A stretch of DNA of 64,000 bases from a virus, in the IMG/VR virus record IMGVR_UViG_3300020411_003736, positions 1 to 64,000 of that record; one strand, 5' to 3'. Position numbers and translations under genes: made by a program. The notes beneath the pieces were generated by a model, which searched no databases, was not told the DNA's origin, and saw only the letters and a list, made by a program, of their open reading frames with translations. Shown piece by piece: positions 30,939-34,350 of the stretch (position 1 is the stretch's first letter; each line of letters opens with the position of its first letter).

Positions 30939-31316
30939 TTAATAAGGACCATCAATTGTTGATTCTAAATTACCCCACATAAGAAGAGAACCTACTAACT
31001 TATCATCATTATCTGTCCACTCATCATTAGTTTTATCTTCCCAATAAATCTCACCTGTATCGTGATTGTATATTTGATGAACATGCATTTCATCATCTTT
31101 ATAATACCACACAACAGCTAACATTTTTATTTCATCAATCTCTTTTTGTGGTATTCTTGTACCATCATTATTTGTTAAACAATTAGTTTCATCCAATAAT
31201 GCAAGTAATGTAATATTCCTCAATGGTGTATTATCTACTTCATCGACACCAATTAAATAACTGGTGGGATAGATTGTTTCATCATAATTCCAATAATGAT
31301 TTTCTGTGTATTTCAT
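30939..31316 (-). CDS. Hypothetical early protein
   Basis: First gene after an early-type promoter. Confidence 0.5.
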   Translation of the reverse strand: MKYTENHYWNYDETIYPTSYLIGVDEVDNTPLRNITLLALLDETNCLTNNDGTRIPQKEIDEIKMLAVVWYYKDDEMHVHQIYNHDTGEIYWEDKTNDEWTDNDDKLVGSLLMWGNLESTIDGPY

Positions 31317-31337
31317 AATATTTTCCCTTTATTAACA

Positions 31338-31380
31338 CCTAAAGCTAATAATAAAATGCAATACAAGTCAAGACTTTTTT
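31338..31380 (-). promoter_or_regulatory. Early-type promoter (A-tract, TTGACT-N18-TAGCTTTAG)
   Basis: Member of a family of at least 7 near-identical intergenic elements. Confidence 0.7.
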
Positions 31381-32162
31381 TAAATAAATTTATCCACTTC
31401 TCTTTGTTCTTCGACTTCGACTTTCTGGATTTCTGCGGTGTTTATAGTGTCGGCGGGATAAGGATATAGTTTATGTTTTAGTTTTGATTTGTATAGTCTG
31501 TTTTCTTTTTTGTTTCCGATGAAATAGAGATATCTATGTTTCTCTGCTTCCTTCTTCAACCAAAATGTTTTACCTATTTTCTTAATTAAATTTTTGGGTG
31601 CGGCTGAACCATATAAAGAATAAACGGTTCTGCTATGTATCCACTCTCCATCTTCTGTGAGTCTTAAACTGAATGTTGGCGCCATCTGTATTTCGCCGCA
31701 CCCTTGATATAACCAATTAGTTGCTTGATAAATTTTACCTGAATGATTTTGTTCAGGATCTGCATATGATATTAATACTTTAATGTTTGGTGCGTTCTGT
31801 TTCAACCAAGCAAACATAGCACCTAATACAAGTGATTCTATATTCTTACCATAACCATCATCAATATAAAGTCTTGTAAGTTCTAAAAGATTTGTTGTTT
31901 CCAATCCTATATCTTCACTAAAGATAGAACCCAACACTCTTCTTCCTACGGGAAAACCAAGGGTCATACAACCTATGAGAGTTTCTTTGGATTCGTTTTC
32001 GAAGAATGGATGTGGGGAATCATCTTTATAAAAGATTCCTAAAGCATATCTACAAGAAGAAGATTTATGAGTATAATGTTTTTCAACAATTATATTCTTT
32101 GCTTGTTTCTTAGGTATTTGTTGTAGATATACTTTTGATTTATCTACATATTTTTCTTCCAT
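31380..32162 (-). CDS. Mom-like (GNAT-fold) DNA adenine modification protein
   Basis: HY..; LELTRL; VLISYADPEQNHSGKIYQATNWLYQG is characteristic of Mom-family proteins. Confidence 0.7.
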   Translation of the reverse strand: MEEKYVDKSKVYLQQIPKKQAKNIIVEKHYTHKSSSCRYALGIFYKDDSPHPFFENESKETLIGCMTLGFPVGRRVLGSIFSEDIGLETTNLLELTRLYIDDGYGKNIESLVLGAMFAWLKQNAPNIKVLISYADPEQNHSGKIYQATNWLYQGCGEIQMAPTFSLRLTEDGEWIHSRTVYSLYGSAAPKNLIKKIGKTFWLKKEAEKHRYLYFIGNKKENRLYKSKLKHKLYPYPADTINTAEIQKVEVEEQREVDKFI

Positions 32163-32197
32163 ACCATATAACTCGGTTATCGTTCACTTAAAATTTG

Positions 32198-32269
32198 AGC
32201 GGTGTTAGAGAATCGAACTCCACCTTCTTCGTTGGAAACGAAGTGTATCGCCTTTGATACTTCCACCGC
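32198..32269 (-). tRNA. tRNA-Gly (UCC)
   Basis: GCGGTGG AA GTAT CAAAGGCG ATAC A CTTCG TTTCCAA CGAAG AAGG TGGAG TTCGATT CTCTA ACACCGC T. Cloverleaf with U73 discriminator; CCA not encoded. Confidence 0.88.
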
Positions 32270-32277
32270 AAATCAAT

Positions 32278-32340
32278 GGGTAACTCTGTTGTCTTTTATT
32301 CTTGAATTCTAGTGGAGAAAAAAGATCGATCGAATTACCC
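32278..32340 (-). ncRNA. Small hairpin RNA element B
   Basis: Closing stem GGGUAAUUC/GAGUUACCC plus inner UCUUUU-UUCU/AGAA-UAAAAGA. Confidence 0.4.
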
Positions 32341-32351
32341 ATAAAACTTTA

Positions 32352-32771
32352 TTGGAATTTAGGTGGGATGTGAGATTAACGATTACTCACAACTTTCAGC
32401 TCAGATTTTTTATACCTTGTACCTAACACCTATCAGCTACTATAGTTCTTTGTAATGAATGGTTAGTTCACGTAACAAAGTGAGTACAACCTCTGTGTTA
32501 TTACCTTATCTCTCTGAGTTTAGATTATTCAGTCATAAAGTGGGATTAGGTTTTATCCGACCCACAACAAGGTCAAAGAATCGTGTTCTTTATTTTTCTG
32601 AAAGTACATTAGATGGTAGATGTCTCTACAGGACAGTTAAACCTCTACAACATTTAGCAGAGTTCCAAGCACCATACTTCATCTTAGATTCCCTTATGAG
32701 CTTCAAAGTATACTCATTATTCAGGCAATCCCATACAGAGTTAATTACTCTCTGTACTTTCCTATTCCAAA
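32352..32771 (-). ncRNA. Large (~420 nt) structured ncRNA, ROOL/GOLLD-class candidate
   Basis: No ORF on the transcribed strand; ends pair (UUGGAAU/AUUCCAA, AGG/CCU, UGGGAU/AUCCCA); many internal and long-range helices; adjacent to a tRNA. Confidence 0.7.
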
Positions 32772-32786
32772 TTTTCAAAAATCAAG

Positions 32787-32842
32787 GGTTGATGCCAGAA
32801 GAACTATGTTCTAACAGTGATGATATACATCCTAATCAACCC
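32787..32842 (-). ncRNA. Small three-way-junction RNA element A
   Basis: GGGUUGAU/AUCAACCC closes two hairpins (GAUG/CAUC, AGAAC/GUUCU); starts right after the predicted TSS. Confidence 0.45.
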
Positions 32843-32854
32843 ATATCTTATATA

Positions 32855-32890
32855 TTAATATAAGTATATTTATATATATAAGTCAAGAGG
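32855..32890 (-). promoter_or_regulatory. Promoter of the ncRNA/tRNA cluster
   Basis: TTGACT (32886-32881)-N18-TATATT. Confidence 0.6.
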
Positions 32891-33164
32891 TTTTTTTATT
32901 TTTTTTTAATCCTAATAACTTTAAATTATGTGATATAAAACCACCAATCTCTTTCTTACCTACCTTGCTTCTATATACATTCTCTAATCGTGTCCATGGA
33001 CAATCTAATGTTCTACTGAATGCTAAATGCATTATCCAAGCACAAATTGGAAATGAAATATAGAATGGTTCACATATCAACACCAATGGTACTGACACTC
33101 CAGCCATGATAAGAAATATCCAATGTGATAATTGAATAAAAAATAATATTAATTTATTTACCAT
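32883..33164 (-). CDS. Small membrane protein (DUF2784-like)
   Basis: Two TM helices and CPWTRLEN motif. Confidence 0.5.
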   Translation of the reverse strand: MVNKLILFFIQLSHWIFLIMAGVSVPLVLICEPFYISFPICAWIMHLAFSRTLDCPWTRLENVYRSKVGKKEIGGFISHNLKLLGLKKNKKTS

Positions 33165-33775
33165 AAGATAAGCGCTTTATCATCCCATTGTTGATATGTT
33201 TTTATATCAAAATTATTTGGATTCAAAAGAGGTCTTGTATTTGATAAAAATTCCATATTGATAGAAATTCTTGGCTCTTCACTCTTACAAGGATTTGGTT
33301 TATGTGACAACCAACCAGGCATAAGAAAGAGATGTTTTTCAAATGGTTTAATTTCTACCTCTTCCCCATTTTCCACCATCAAACTCAATGTACCATCAGT
33401 ATCTGGAACACTTGCATAGTAAACACCATTTACCGAAGCTCTGTTACAATGGTTGTGCCAATAAGAATCATATCTCTTTTTACCATAAGATACATAAGCA
33501 CATCCAAGTGATTTATTGGGATTCATACTCATACAATTTTCAGGTAGATTATTAAACAATTTATGACATCCATGTTTAAAGATATTATAAAGATTTTTCA
33601 TTTCCCATGTATCATCCATTCGTGTATTATAAGTTCCTTCCTCTAAATTGGATCTTTCCTTATTATCCGATTCTATAGATTGTTCCACCAACTTATCATT
33701 AGTTTCATCATCTATAACATCTGATAAATCCAATCTCAATAACCATGGATAGTTTTTTATTGGCAATAAATTCAT
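33158..33775 (-). CDS. 2OG-Fe(II) oxygenase-like protein
   Basis: WHNH..VNGVYY..LFLMPGWLSH..RISINM. Confidence 0.7.
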   Translation of the reverse strand: MNLLPIKNYPWLLRLDLSDVIDDETNDKLVEQSIESDNKERSNLEEGTYNTRMDDTWEMKNLYNIFKHGCHKLFNNLPENCMSMNPNKSLGCAYVSYGKKRYDSYWHNHCNRASVNGVYYASVPDTDGTLSLMVENGEEVEIKPFEKHLFLMPGWLSHKPNPCKSEEPRISINMEFLSNTRPLLNPNNFDIKTYQQWDDKALILW

Positions 33776-34350
33776 TTATTGAAATATTTAAAAACTCTAT
33801 TGACATAAAAGTTATCTGATATATAAGCATAACTATATTTTTTTGTAGCAGTTGGACCGTGACTATAGCCTGTTAAAGCATAATACCAATCATCACCAGA
33901 GTTGTGATATAAATCAGAAAGATACATTATACCAACAGTTACATTAACATATGGATCATATAAATCTTCTTTAGGTGTTTTGAATTCACTATATGCTGTT
34001 TCAGGTTTTATCTGCATCAATCCTATAGCACCACTCGTAGATACTGCTTTGTGATCCCAACTTGATTCAGTCATTATAACTGATTTAGCCAAATCATATG
34101 GTACGGTATATTCATCACATAAGGCATGGATATAAATCAACACATGCTTTAGTTTGGATTTATTTAATGATGAATTTATTTGTTCTGCATCATCGGAAAA
34201 GTTTGGTTTGGGTTTTTCTATTTCAACTAAATTATCAATCTTACGAACTACAGTTTTTATTGGAACTTCATACATATTTTCCATATAGAAAACTACAGCG
34301 GCAAACGCAGTAAGTATTCCCATTATAAAAGTTGTTTTAGGGTTATTCAT
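33772..34350 (-). CDS. Lytic transglycosylase (SLT domain) with N-terminal anchor
   Basis: VIMTESSW..AVSTSGAIGLMQI..LYDPYVNV..G..YL..YSHG. Confidence 0.85.
   Translation of the reverse strand: MNNPKTTFIMGILTAFAAVVFYMENMYEVPIKTVVRKIDNLVEIEKPKPNFSDDAEQINSSLNKSKLKHVLIYIHALCDEYTVPYDLAKSVIMTESSWDHKAVSTSGAIGLMQIKPETAYSEFKTPKEDLYDPYVNVTVGIMYLSDLYHNSGDDWYYALTGYSHGPTATKKYSYAYISDNFYVNRVFKYFNK

What the first reader, a model, noticed from the sequence alone, without database searches (positions are those of the whole stretch)
32352..32771. ~420-nt ornate ncRNA co-transcribed with tRNA-Gly
Seen on the minus strand: terminal helices UUGGAAU/AUUCCAA, AGG/CCU and UGGGAU/AUCCCA. Local hairpins include UACAGAG/CUCUGUA, UGAG/CUCA, CUCUGC/GUAGAG, GUAGA-GACA-UCUAC, GUGGG/CCCAC, CUUUGU/ACAAAG and UGUGAG/CUCACA. 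Long-range pairs include ACCUUGU/ACAAGGU, CUCAGA/UCUGAG, UAACAC/GUGUUA and ACUUUCAG/CUGAAAGU. CUGAAUAAU occurs twice. Known: ROOL and GOLLD RNAs are large phage-associated RNAs, often next to tRNAs, with unknown function. Inference: this is a compact ROOL-like or new large RNA class in a marine phage.
Basis: partly seen in the sequence, partly recalled or inferred. Interest (0 to 1): 0.82.

Follow-up and report, generated by a model that had tools for sequence, protein, structure and literature searches.

The report
Nested two-core manA phage RNA
The flagged stretch is a real, elaborately folded phage RNA of about 400 bases, but it is an enlarged two-core relative of the known marine "manA" RNA, not a ROOL-like or wholly new class, and in this genome it sits just before a tRNA gene.

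Summary
On that alignment 98.0% of cells pair, and 66 of 87 pairs show changes on both sides (0 of 500 shuffles reach this; slid controls score far lower).

Rfam's manA model (RF01745) matches 32365-32558 (-) at 70.8 bits (cut-off 55.2). No ROOL, GOLLD, RNase P, tmRNA or intron model matches.

The RNA is one integrated fold. An outer manA-like core has its P4 arm replaced by two long-range helices. These helices enclose a second manA-like core and a covarying pseudoknot.

In most relatives the RNA has its own promoter-like region and a conserved terminator hairpin. It lies before a gp32-type gene in 52 of 65 relatives. Only the window and one close relative carry tRNA-Gly downstream, and there the U-run is lost.

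The plus-strand ORF is not conserved (3 of 65). Contigs from marine RNA libraries cover the RNA.

I found no description of this layout in the papers I could search. Earlier follow-ups of this scan reported the same family on other genomes. I class it as a new variant of a known kind.

The parts
32857..32886 (-). Promoter-like site: TTGACT, 18-nt spacer, TATATT, preceded by an A-rich tract.
   Evidence: 10 of 12 matches. The scan found 2 sites where 4.0 are expected in shuffles, so it is not significant on its own. The same position holds a -35-like TTGGGA/TTGAGA, an AT-rich -10 region and an upstream A-tract in 62 aligned relatives.
32786..32842 (-). 5' leader hairpin ('element A'): GGGUUGAU...AUCAACCC.
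   Evidence: Read. It is 76% alignable to L003. Relatives carry a hairpin of variable sequence at this place.
32772..32783 (-). Nearly invariant U-rich leader box just 5' of the outer helix, proposed to be boxA-like.
   Evidence: the best conserved unpaired stretch of the leader in 62 sequences; 2 matches in the 130-kb genome against 1.12 expected. The comparison with Pelagibacter rrn leaders was inconclusive.
32764..32770 (-). Outer closing helix, 5' strand (UUGGAAU). It pairs with 32352-32358.
   Evidence: The helix forms in 65 of 65 relatives, with different sequences.
32611..32757 (-). Outer manA-like core, 5' part. It holds the P1 hairpin, GGGAU, the CUGAAUAA / hairpin / UAAGG module, and a multi-hairpin P3 arm.
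   Evidence: Weak manA match of 17.6 bits at 32610-32756. Helices 1-6 are 96-100% paired, and 5 of the 6 show covariation.
32392..32605 (-). Two long-range helices (32605-32598 with 32399-32392; 32572-32568 with 32419-32415). They stand where the single-core P4 hairpin would be and enclose the inner core. A small hairpin lies at 32591-32575.
   Evidence: helices 7-9: 11 of 13 pairs have changes on both sides. Coordinates.
32424..32563 (-). Inner manA-like core. It holds P1', the second CUGAAUAA/UAAGG module, and a P3' junction with three hairpins.
   Evidence: It is part of the Rfam manA match at 32365-32558, 70.8 bits. Helices 10-13 and 15-19 are 91-100% paired.
32400..32518 (-). Pseudoknot: CUCAGA (32518-32513, in the loop of the inner P2' hairpin) with UCUGAG (32405-32400).
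   Evidence: helix 14: 96.7% of cells paired, and 4 of 6 pairs have changes on both sides.
32365..32390 (-). P5 hairpin (GUGAG...CUCAC) followed by AUCCC, which pairs with GGGAU at 32732-32728.
   Evidence: (helices 2 and 20). The AUCCC/GGGAU helix is invariant, with 100% of cells paired.
32352..32358 (-). Outer closing helix, 3' strand (AUUCCAA).
32276..32342 (-). 'Element B': a long hairpin (AUGGGUAA...UUACCCAU) homologous to the family's conserved terminator hairpin. Here it lacks the U-run.
   Evidence: the stem covaries across relatives and the interior is nearly invariant. By my inspection of the rows, 56 of 65 have a run of at least 5 U after the stem. The window is among the 9 that do not.
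32197..32269 (-). tRNA-Gly (anticodon TCC), starting 6 bases after element B.
   Evidence: ARAGORN. Rfam tRNA model, 38.2 bits. It is the only tRNA in the 130-kb record.
32459..32863 (+). Chance open frame of 134 codons on the opposite strand. It is not a gene.
   Evidence: No PHROG or Pfam hit. No equivalent ORF in L003. At least 100 open codons in only 3 of 65 relatives, median 55.

Best explanation
This is a gene for a folded RNA of about 390-420 nt belonging to the manA kind.

Shown:
- It is a single integrated fold, not two independent tandem copies.
- An outer manA-like core comprises the P1 hairpin, GGGAU paired with a far-3' AUCCC, a CUGAAUAA/UAAGG module, a P3 arm and a P5 hairpin.
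- Its P4 arm is replaced by two long-range helices. These enclose a second manA-like core and a pseudoknot.
- An extra outer helix clamps the two ends.
- In the family the RNA has its own promoter-like region and a conserved terminator hairpin, and it occurs in several gene contexts.

Inferred for this window:
- The terminator hairpin is kept but its U-run is lost.
- tRNA-Gly begins 6 bases later, and the Mom-like gene 34 bases after the tRNA.
- Transcription probably runs on, and RNase P cutting at the tRNA 5' end would release the RNA.

Mechanism, by analogy only:
- The RNA probably acts in trans as a stable, abundant folded particle, not as a switch for the next gene.
- A 2026 preprint reports that single-core manA RNAs form closed RNA-only oligomers in vitro through loop-loop contacts.
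- The two-core form may build one such partner contact into the chain and may still assemble further.
- What it binds or encloses in the infected cell is unknown.
For: Family and fold:
- manA match of 70.8 bits against a cut-off of 55.2, plus a second weak manA match over the 5' half (17.6 bits).
- The same two-part layout occurs in the close relative L003 (40.2 and 26.4 bits). There the flanks align with the window by blastn but the core does not.
- In 12 of 12 further relatives the inner core plus 3' end matches manA at 44.7-68.1 bits, 8 of them at or above the cut-off.
- The structure is supported: 66 of 87 pairs covary and the pseudoknot is 96.7% paired.
- The inner core lacks its own 5' GGGAG-type strand (marked as non-pairs in the alignment). 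The only AUCCC pairs with the outer GGGAU (helix 2).

Independent unit:
- Conserved promoter-like leader.
- Conserved hairpin followed by a U-run in 56 of 65 (counted by inspection).
- Varied downstream genes: gp32-like in 52 of 65, and six other ORF types or none found in the other 13.
- In this genome the gp32-like gene lies about 70 kb away with no such RNA before it.

Presence in RNA libraries:
- Contigs of four marine metatranscriptome runs from four studies lie on 32366-32781.
- They include short contigs with 0-2 differences over 111-227 nt.

Assembly analogy:
- Ren et al., bioRxiv 10.64898/2026.07.01.735769. I read the abstract and sections 7 and 8.
Against: - No experiment or read-level data show the strand, the ends or the processing. 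Logan contigs cannot show them.
- The link to a gp32-type gene in 52 of 65 relatives, and in 8 of 47 single-core manA loci, fits a cis role as well as an independent one.
- The order 'aptamer-like fold, then terminator hairpin, then gene' is also the classic riboswitch layout.
- Oligomer formation is reported only for single-core manA RNAs, only in vitro, and only in a preprint.
- My search for self-complementary loops was not significant.
- The promoter scan found fewer sites than shuffles do.
- In this window the RNA heads what may be one transcript with tRNA-Gly and the Mom-like gene, so here it could act as a leader.
Confidence: 0.55

Rival explanations
1. It is a cis-acting leader or riboswitch. 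The two manA-like cores would sense a metabolite or a protein, much as tandem aptamers do. They would then set how often transcription passes element B into the next gene: gp32 in most relatives, tRNA-Gly and the Mom-like gene here.
For: - Weinberg et al. 2010 proposed manA as a cis-regulatory riboswitch candidate in 5' UTRs (PMC2864571, passages read).
- The order promoter, fold, terminator hairpin, gene holds in most relatives.
- The downstream gene is gp32-like in 52 of 65.
- Single-core manA directly precedes T4-type gp32 in 8 of 47 loci, with no terminator in the L057 example.
Against: - The element B stem sequence varies freely. I saw no conserved alternative pairing between it and the 3' strands of the fold.
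- A second promoter-like region of the same design lies between element B and gp32.
- The RNA occurs before unrelated genes, and in this genome far from gp32.
- No ligand is known for manA.
Confidence: 0.25
2. It is part of an rRNA-operon-like or processive anti-termination cassette. A leader hairpin and a boxA-like box would load host Nus factors. The polymerase would then fold the long RNA as it is made and read through element B into tRNA-Gly and the following genes. The outer helix would serve as a processing stem.
For: - A nearly invariant U-rich box follows a hairpin just before the outer helix in 62 sequences.
- An A-tract lies upstream of the promoter-like site.
- A distal tRNA follows without a U-run in the window.
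- Pelagibacter rrn leaders show a hairpin followed by a U-rich box of similar make-up, by my own alignment by eye, with gaps.
- One class-B contig is binned in a Pelagibacter MAG.
- An earlier follow-up of this scan raised the same idea.
Against: - My motif pattern matched only 1 of 12 rrn leaders near the expected place.
- The sequences are very AT-rich, so likeness is cheap: 2 genome hits against 1.12 expected.
- The host is unknown.
- Most relatives keep a full U-run after element B (56 of 65, by inspection), which speaks for termination and not read-through.
- The likeness to a boxA consensus rests partly on my recollection.
Confidence: 0.1
3. It is a compact ROOL- or GOLLD-like RNA, or an entirely new RNA class.
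For: - Its size and ornateness.
- Its phage origin.
- Its position beside a tRNA.
Against: - cmscan of the whole window at gathering thresholds finds only manA.
- At E up to 10 over 32100-33000 it finds manA twice, tRNA and four chance-level snoRNA or miRNA rows. No ROOL or GOLLD match appears.
- The conserved motifs and helices map onto the manA model.
Confidence: 0.02
4. The stretch encodes the 134-aa plus-strand protein (32459-32863), and the apparent RNA structure is incidental.
For: An open frame of 134 codons exists.
Against: - No family hit in PHROGs or Pfam.
- The frame is closed in relatives: at least 100 open codons in 3 of 65, median 55.
- Substitutions follow base-pairing and not codons.
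Confidence: 0.01

Closest known systems
manA RNA motif (Rfam RF01745; Weinberg et al. 2010, PMC2864571)
   Same: - A marine phage setting.
- A P1 hairpin followed by a GGGA(G/U) strand that pairs with a 3'-terminal (C/A)UCCC.
- A CUGAAUAA ... UAAGG module around a hairpin.
- A P3 junction with three hairpins.
- A P5 hairpin with a UAAUC-type loop.
- The Rfam model scores 70.8 bits here.
- It often lies before a gp32-type gene.
   Different: - Two cores in one chain of about 400 nt, against one core of about 190 nt.
- The P4 hairpin is replaced by two long-range helices that hold the second core.
- There is an extra pseudoknot and an extra outer closing helix.
- The inner core has no GGGAG strand of its own.
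- The RNA is followed by a conserved terminator hairpin and does not run straight into an ORF.
- It comes from a different phage group. The gp32-like protein's nearest GenBank phage relatives are Microcystis phage Mel-JY01 (48%) and Flavobacterium phages (39%), with four Synechococcus phage ACG-2014f (cyanophage) records only at about 26% identity.
- 4 of 12 relatives tested, and also L003, fall below the Rfam cut-off.
Single-core manA RNA assemblies (Ren et al. 2026 preprint, bioRxiv 10.64898/2026.07.01.735769)
   Same: The same family core. The preprint shows that manA cores carry loops that make RNA-RNA contacts and build pentamers, decamers and a 60-mer cage in vitro.
   Different: - The preprint studies RNAs under 200 nt.
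- The words tandem, nested, tRNA and gp32 do not occur in its main text.
- Nothing is known about assembly of the two-core form.
- Its supplements were not open to me.
ROOL and GOLLD RNAs
   Different: No sequence or structure match to their Rfam models. This RNA is shorter and has a different set of conserved motifs.
Tandem-aptamer riboswitches such as the tandem glycine riboswitch
   Same: Two similar ligand-type cores in one RNA that contact each other (from my own knowledge; one 2026 cryo-EM paper was seen only in the search listing).
   Different: - Here the cores are nested, not side by side.
- They share one terminal helix.
- No ligand or expression platform has been identified.

Membership tests
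manA RNA (RF01745) | Score of the Rfam covariance model at or above the gathering cut-off (55.2 bits). | tested here: met
   70.8 bits, E 5.4e-16, full model 1-192, at 32365-32558 (-). This match covers the inner core plus the shared 3' end. The outer 5' half alone scores 17.6 bits.
manA RNA (RF01745) | A P1 hairpin followed by a GGGAG-type strand that pairs with the 3'-terminal CUCCC-type strand. | tested here: met
   The outer core has P1 and GGGAU (32732-32728) paired with AUCCC (32369-32365), 100% paired in 61 rows but invariant (helix 2). The inner core lacks the 5' strand (non-pairs in the alignment).
manA RNA (RF01745) | A conserved CUGAAUAA ... UAAGG module flanking a hairpin. | tested here: met
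   It is present twice: 32724-32716 with 32696-32692, and 32532-32524 with 32508-32504. The columns are invariant or nearly so in A1.
manA RNA (RF01745) | A single compact domain of about 190 nt with a local P4 hairpin. | tested here: not met
   The fold spans 32770-32352. The P4 position is taken by long-range helices that enclose a second core.
manA RNA (RF01745) | Position in the 5' UTR directly before a protein-coding gene (as described in 2010). | tested here: not met
   It is followed by a terminator-type hairpin and then tRNA-Gly here. In relatives a hairpin plus U-run and a further promoter-like region precede gp32.
manA RNA (RF01745) | Formation of closed RNA-only oligomers (a property reported in 2026 for single-core members). 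| not testable with these tools
   Known only from the preprint. My loop self-complementarity test was not significant.
ROOL / GOLLD RNAs | A match to the Rfam covariance models of these families. | tested here: not met
   No such match at gathering thresholds over the whole window, nor at E up to 10 over 32100-33000.
rrn-type anti-termination leader (boxB hairpin plus boxA) | A boxA sequence like that of the host's rRNA leaders, placed after a hairpin near the transcript start. | tested here: inconclusive
   A conserved U-rich box follows a hairpin. 12 Pelagibacter rrn leaders show a similar hairpin-plus-U-rich-box layout, but my pattern hit 1 of 12 at the expected place. The host assignment rests on one MAG contig.

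The most novel reading that the evidence does not exclude
The phage may express this RNA in the manner of a ribosomal RNA operon. The signs would be a strong promoter with an A-tract, a hairpin plus a boxA-like leader, a flanking processing helix and a distal tRNA. Such a cassette could mass-produce a two-core manA RNA that self-assembles into RNA-only cages or lattices inside the infected cell. That would be a phage-encoded RNA compartment or sponge with no protein shell. The nested second core would act as a built-in partner that sets the geometry.
Probability: 0.1. Interest if true: 0.85.

Novelty: new variant of a known kind. Interest (0 to 1): 0.55.

Why it matters
manA has been an orphan 'riboswitch candidate' since 2010. 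In 2026 a preprint reported that it builds RNA-only cages in vitro.

A natural form with two nested cores is common in marine viral contigs. I found 86 class-B loci among 127 stretches carrying the narrower motif, pooled from two capped viral-contig scans, and 28 among 119 metagenome stretches. It is also present in marine RNA libraries.

This form has its own promoter-like region and terminator hairpin. That suggests the family can act as a free-standing RNA and not only as an mRNA leader.

It also offers a ready test of how the core's contacts are used. The two cores can be compared within one molecule.

The recurrent position before gp32-type genes in two unrelated phage groups is an unexplained regularity. 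The tRNA-linked arrangement in this window is another. Both can be tested directly.

Tried and rejected
- **Single-sequence folding.** Both strands fold about equally well, so it gives no evidence either way.
- **GenBank phages.** I found no DNA match for the window stretch or for the L041 RNA. The family is therefore known only from uncultured contigs.
- **Synteny through the Mom-like protein.** 37 related loci were fetched, and only L002 and L003 carry the RNA and the tRNA. Linkage to Mom is therefore local.
- **Cover of the flanks in RNA libraries.** The bins over 31300-32343 and 32782-33900, the tRNA and element B had next to no contig cover. Contigs of X2 and X3 end at 32366. Contigs cannot show ends, strand or level, and no DNA run was laid. 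I therefore draw no conclusion on the RNA's ends, on co-transcription or on expression level.
- **Promoter and terminator scan.** Promoter-like sites were fewer than in shuffles, and no terminator-like site was found because the element B loop is too long for the rule. The scan is weak on its own.
- **boxA idea.** It stays inconclusive (see the membership test). The Pelagibacter host hint rests on one binned contig among 120 genome stretches.
- **Naive all-against-all covariation scan.** It returned 512 'pairs', of which only 48 lie in the structure. Shared ancestry and G-U tolerance dominate, so I claim no further tertiary contact.
- **Self-complementary P1 loops.** My hairpin finder set many stems wrongly, and shuffles reached the same palindrome length in 19-100% of trials. 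I rejected this as evidence.
- **Antiterminator pairing.** I considered pairing between AUCCC and the 3' strand of element B. It fits only the relatives whose stem is G/C-run based and not the others, so I rejected it.
- **gp32 operator idea.** I considered the RNA as an operator on which gp32 would nucleate. It does not fit this genome, where gp32 is about 70 kb away.
- **Supplements.** Those of Weinberg 2010, Zhang 2023 and Ren 2026 were not open to me. They may list tandem or unusual manA examples. My statement that the layout is not in print rests on searches and on the passages read.
Full report
**What is there**

The flagged stretch lies on the minus strand between a small ORF (32883-33164) and tRNA-Gly(TCC) (32197-32269). 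All neighbouring genes are also on the minus strand.

The downstream gene is a Mom-like DNA modification gene (PHROG 1384, E 3.4e-43; Pfam Mom, 149 bits). Upstream lie a 2OG-Fe(II) oxygenase-like gene, a transglycosylase and an HNH endonuclease.

The window belongs to an IMG/VR virus record of 130,380 bases. The record is estimated 71% complete, has 32.5% G+C and carries a single tRNA.

**Checking the observation**

I mapped each to window coordinates. Folding one sequence does not separate the strands (z -2.31 against -2.14), so the test had to be comparative.

I collected relatives in three steps:
- A protein-guided search with the Mom-like protein gave 37 loci. Only the near-identical pair L002/L003 carries the RNA and the tRNA.
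- Between the window and L003 the flanks align by blastn (76-83%) but the core does not. Even so, the same two-part layout, outer helix and GGGAU/AUCCC pairing are there.
- Two scans of viral contigs followed, using a motif shared by the window and L003.

Together the scans gave 127 stretches with the narrower motif. Of these:
- 86 are relatives of the window RNA ('class B').
- 82 are full length.
- 65 are unique.
- They are 55-78% identical to the window.

The first scan also returned 73 ordinary single-core manA loci, which I call 'class A'.

On the alignment of the 65 unique sequences (A1), RNAalifold predicts 83 pairs, 62 of them with compensatory changes.

I then counted pairs for my own 87-pair structure, which drops two doubtful pairs and adds a pseudoknot:
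- 98.0% of 5,292 cells are paired, against 78.4% in shuffles.
- 66 pairs have changes on both sides, against 48.9 in shuffles.
- The covariation score is 0.592, against 0.212 in shuffles and at most 0.108 when the 3' partners are slid.
- 0 of 500 shuffles reach the observed values.

The structure came partly from this same alignment, which favours it against the slid versions. Even so, the margin is very large.

The GGGAU/AUCCC helix never varies. It is conserved but not proven by covariation.

MAFFT aligns the outer helix badly, so I analysed it sequence by sequence. A duplex forms in 65 of 65 sequences, with several different sequences. The mean energy is -10.07 kcal/mol, against -4.76 for shuffled partners. 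Non-cognate partners still reach -8.40, because many members share the same AU-rich strands.

**What it is**

Rfam's manA model (RF01745) matches 32365-32558 at 70.8 bits, against a cut-off of 55.2. A second weak match of 17.6 bits covers 32610-32756. Nothing else above noise matches apart from the tRNA. No ROOL, GOLLD, RNase P, tmRNA or intron model appears. The repeated CUGAAUAAU is the manA core motif, present once in each half.

The two halves are not independent tandem copies:
- The 5' half has the P1 hairpin, the GGGAU strand, the CUGAAUAA/UAAGG module and a multi-hairpin arm.
- The 3' half has its own P1', a second module and a three-hairpin junction. It has no GGGAG-type strand of its own.
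- The only AUCCC, next to the P5 hairpin at the far 3' end, pairs with the GGGAU of the 5' half.
- Between them, two long-range helices (32605-32598 with 32399-32392, and 32572-32568 with 32419-32415) stand where a single-core manA has its P4 hairpin.
- The loop of the inner P2' hairpin forms a pseudoknot with 32405-32400 (96.7% paired; 4 of 6 pairs covary).

So one manA-like core is nested inside the P4 arm of another. An extra helix (32770-32764 with 32358-32352) clamps the two ends.

In 12 further relatives the Rfam model finds the inner core plus 3' end in 12 of 12, at 44.7-68.1 bits. Eight are at or above the cut-off. It finds the outer 5' half in only 2.

**Surroundings in the family**

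Upstream, 62 aligned relatives share the following order:
- an A-rich tract;
- a -35-like hexamer;
- an AT-rich -10 region;
- a hairpin of variable sequence;
- a nearly invariant U-rich box just before the outer helix.

In the window the simple scan finds TTGACT, an 18-nt spacer and TATATT at 32886-32857, but such sites are no rarer in shuffles.

Downstream, nearly all relatives have a long hairpin, which I call 'element B'. Its G+C-rich stem covaries and its interior is almost invariant. By my inspection of the rows, 56 of 65 have a run of at least 5 U after the stem.

After element B comes another promoter-like region of the same design, then a gene of about 252 aa. This holds in 52 of 65 relatives. 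The gene is gp32-like (Pfam PF08804, 52 bits). The other 13 have six different first ORFs or none found.

**This genome differs**

The gp32-like gene lies at 102006-102764 of the record, with ordinary genes and no Rfam match before it. The RNA sits elsewhere.

Its element B keeps the stem (32342-32335 with 32283-32276) but has no U-run. tRNA-Gly starts 6 bases later, and the Mom-like gene 34 bases after the tRNA. Only the window and the L002/L003 sequence have this arrangement. One other locus has a tRNA-His upstream.

Co-transcription of the RNA, the tRNA and perhaps the Mom-like gene is therefore a reasonable inference here. It is not a family trait, and it is not shown.

**Expression**

The index found 24 marine RNA runs from 18 studies holding part of the stretch. 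I laid four runs from four studies. Their contigs lie on 32366-32781. They include contigs of 111-227 nt with 0-2 differences, and many from relatives.

These are assembled contigs. They show that the sequence, or close kin, is present in RNA libraries. They do not show strand, ends or level.

**Protein-coding rival**

The 134-codon plus-strand frame has no family hit and no counterpart in L003. It stays open for at least 100 codons in only 3 of 65 relatives.

**How it most likely works**

Shown: a conserved, integrated two-core fold, with promoter-like and terminator-like signals of its own in most relatives and with varied neighbours.

Inferred: it is a free-standing RNA and not the leader of one particular gene. 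In this window a leaky element B lets transcription continue into tRNA-Gly, where RNase P would cut.

By analogy only: a 2026 preprint reports that single-core manA RNAs form pentamer-based decamers, octamers and a 60-mer cage in vitro through kissing loops. I read its abstract and sections 7 and 8. The two-core RNA may turn one such contact into an intramolecular one and may still assemble.

I give this whole reading 0.55. The cis-regulatory reading gets 0.25. It is kept alive by the striking linkage to gp32-type genes, both here (52 of 65) and for single-core manA in T4-like cyanophage contigs. There 8 of 47 loci have manA before gp32, and the L057 example scores 164 bits for PF08804.

An rRNA-operon-like anti-termination reading gets 0.10. 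The conserved leader box resembles the hairpin-plus-U-rich-box layout of 12 Pelagibacter rrn leaders. However, my pattern hit only 1 of 12 at the expected place. The sequences are very AT-rich. The host hint rests on one MAG contig.

**Known or new**

The papers I could search are these:
- Ten papers hold 'manA RNA', 'manA motif', 'manA riboswitch' or RF01745.
- The 2026 preprint was found.

In the passages I read, they describe only the single-core motif.

Neither the window RNA nor the L041 RNA has a match in GenBank phages.

Earlier follow-ups of this scan reached the same 'nested or fused two-core manA' reading on other genomes. I had reached the integrated-fold reading before looking. Their lead to the preprint, and their boxA idea, I checked myself.

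I class the finding as a new variant of a known kind. The window's own twist is the move away from gp32 and the link to tRNA-Gly.

Noticed in passing
L057:1-1228 and other class-A loci (L044, L069, L071, L072 ...): Ordinary single-core manA RNAs in T4-like cyanophage contigs directly precede a T4-type gp32 gene in 8 of 47 unique loci (PF08804, 164 bits for L057). Five precede transaldolase-like genes and three precede HAD-like genes. The 2010 passage I read does not list gp32 among the associated genes.
   Followed up: partly
window 32276-32342 (-); e.g. L041, L079, L105 just after the RNA: 'Element B' is a long terminator-type hairpin. Its stem covaries, but its interior (an AU-rich upper stem and a CCAC-containing loop) is nearly invariant across relatives. 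That is more conservation than a plain terminator needs.
   Followed up: partly
L048, L054, L059, L069 (class A), about 200-260 nt after the manA start: Several cyanophage single-core manA RNAs are followed by a different conserved hairpin plus U-run (stem GACC/GGUC type with a conserved loop). This may correspond to the small 'abiF' Rfam hit reported about 100 nt after manA in phage S-CREM1 (PMC9964418, Table 4).
   Followed up: no
L330 (contig NHJA01000041.1, 16.4 kb): One class-B RNA, 97% identical to that of L041, lies on a contig binned in a 'Candidatus Pelagibacter sp.' MAG. This is a weak hint at a SAR11 host, or else a mis-binned phage contig.
   Followed up: partly
L003:2765-2840: The closest relative has an extra hairpin of about 75 nt inserted between the RNA's outer helix and element B. 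The window lacks it. Rfam gave only a chance-level snoRNA row there.
   Followed up: no
window 32739-32751 (-) and the same loop in relatives: The P1 loop often holds a self-complementary six-letter word, and different such words occur in different subgroups. That would suit a kissing-loop dimer, but my shuffle control did not make it significant.
   Followed up: partly
window 31380-32162 (-): A Mom-like DNA modification gene (Pfam Mom, 149 bits) follows the tRNA by 34 bases. 37 viral contigs carry relatives at 28-96% identity.
   Followed up: partly
window 32883-33164 (-): The 93-aa ORF just upstream of the RNA's promoter-like site gives a sub-threshold DUF2784 match (26.3 bits against a cut-off of 29.7). 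L003 has no ORF of at least 40 codons at that place.
   Followed up: no
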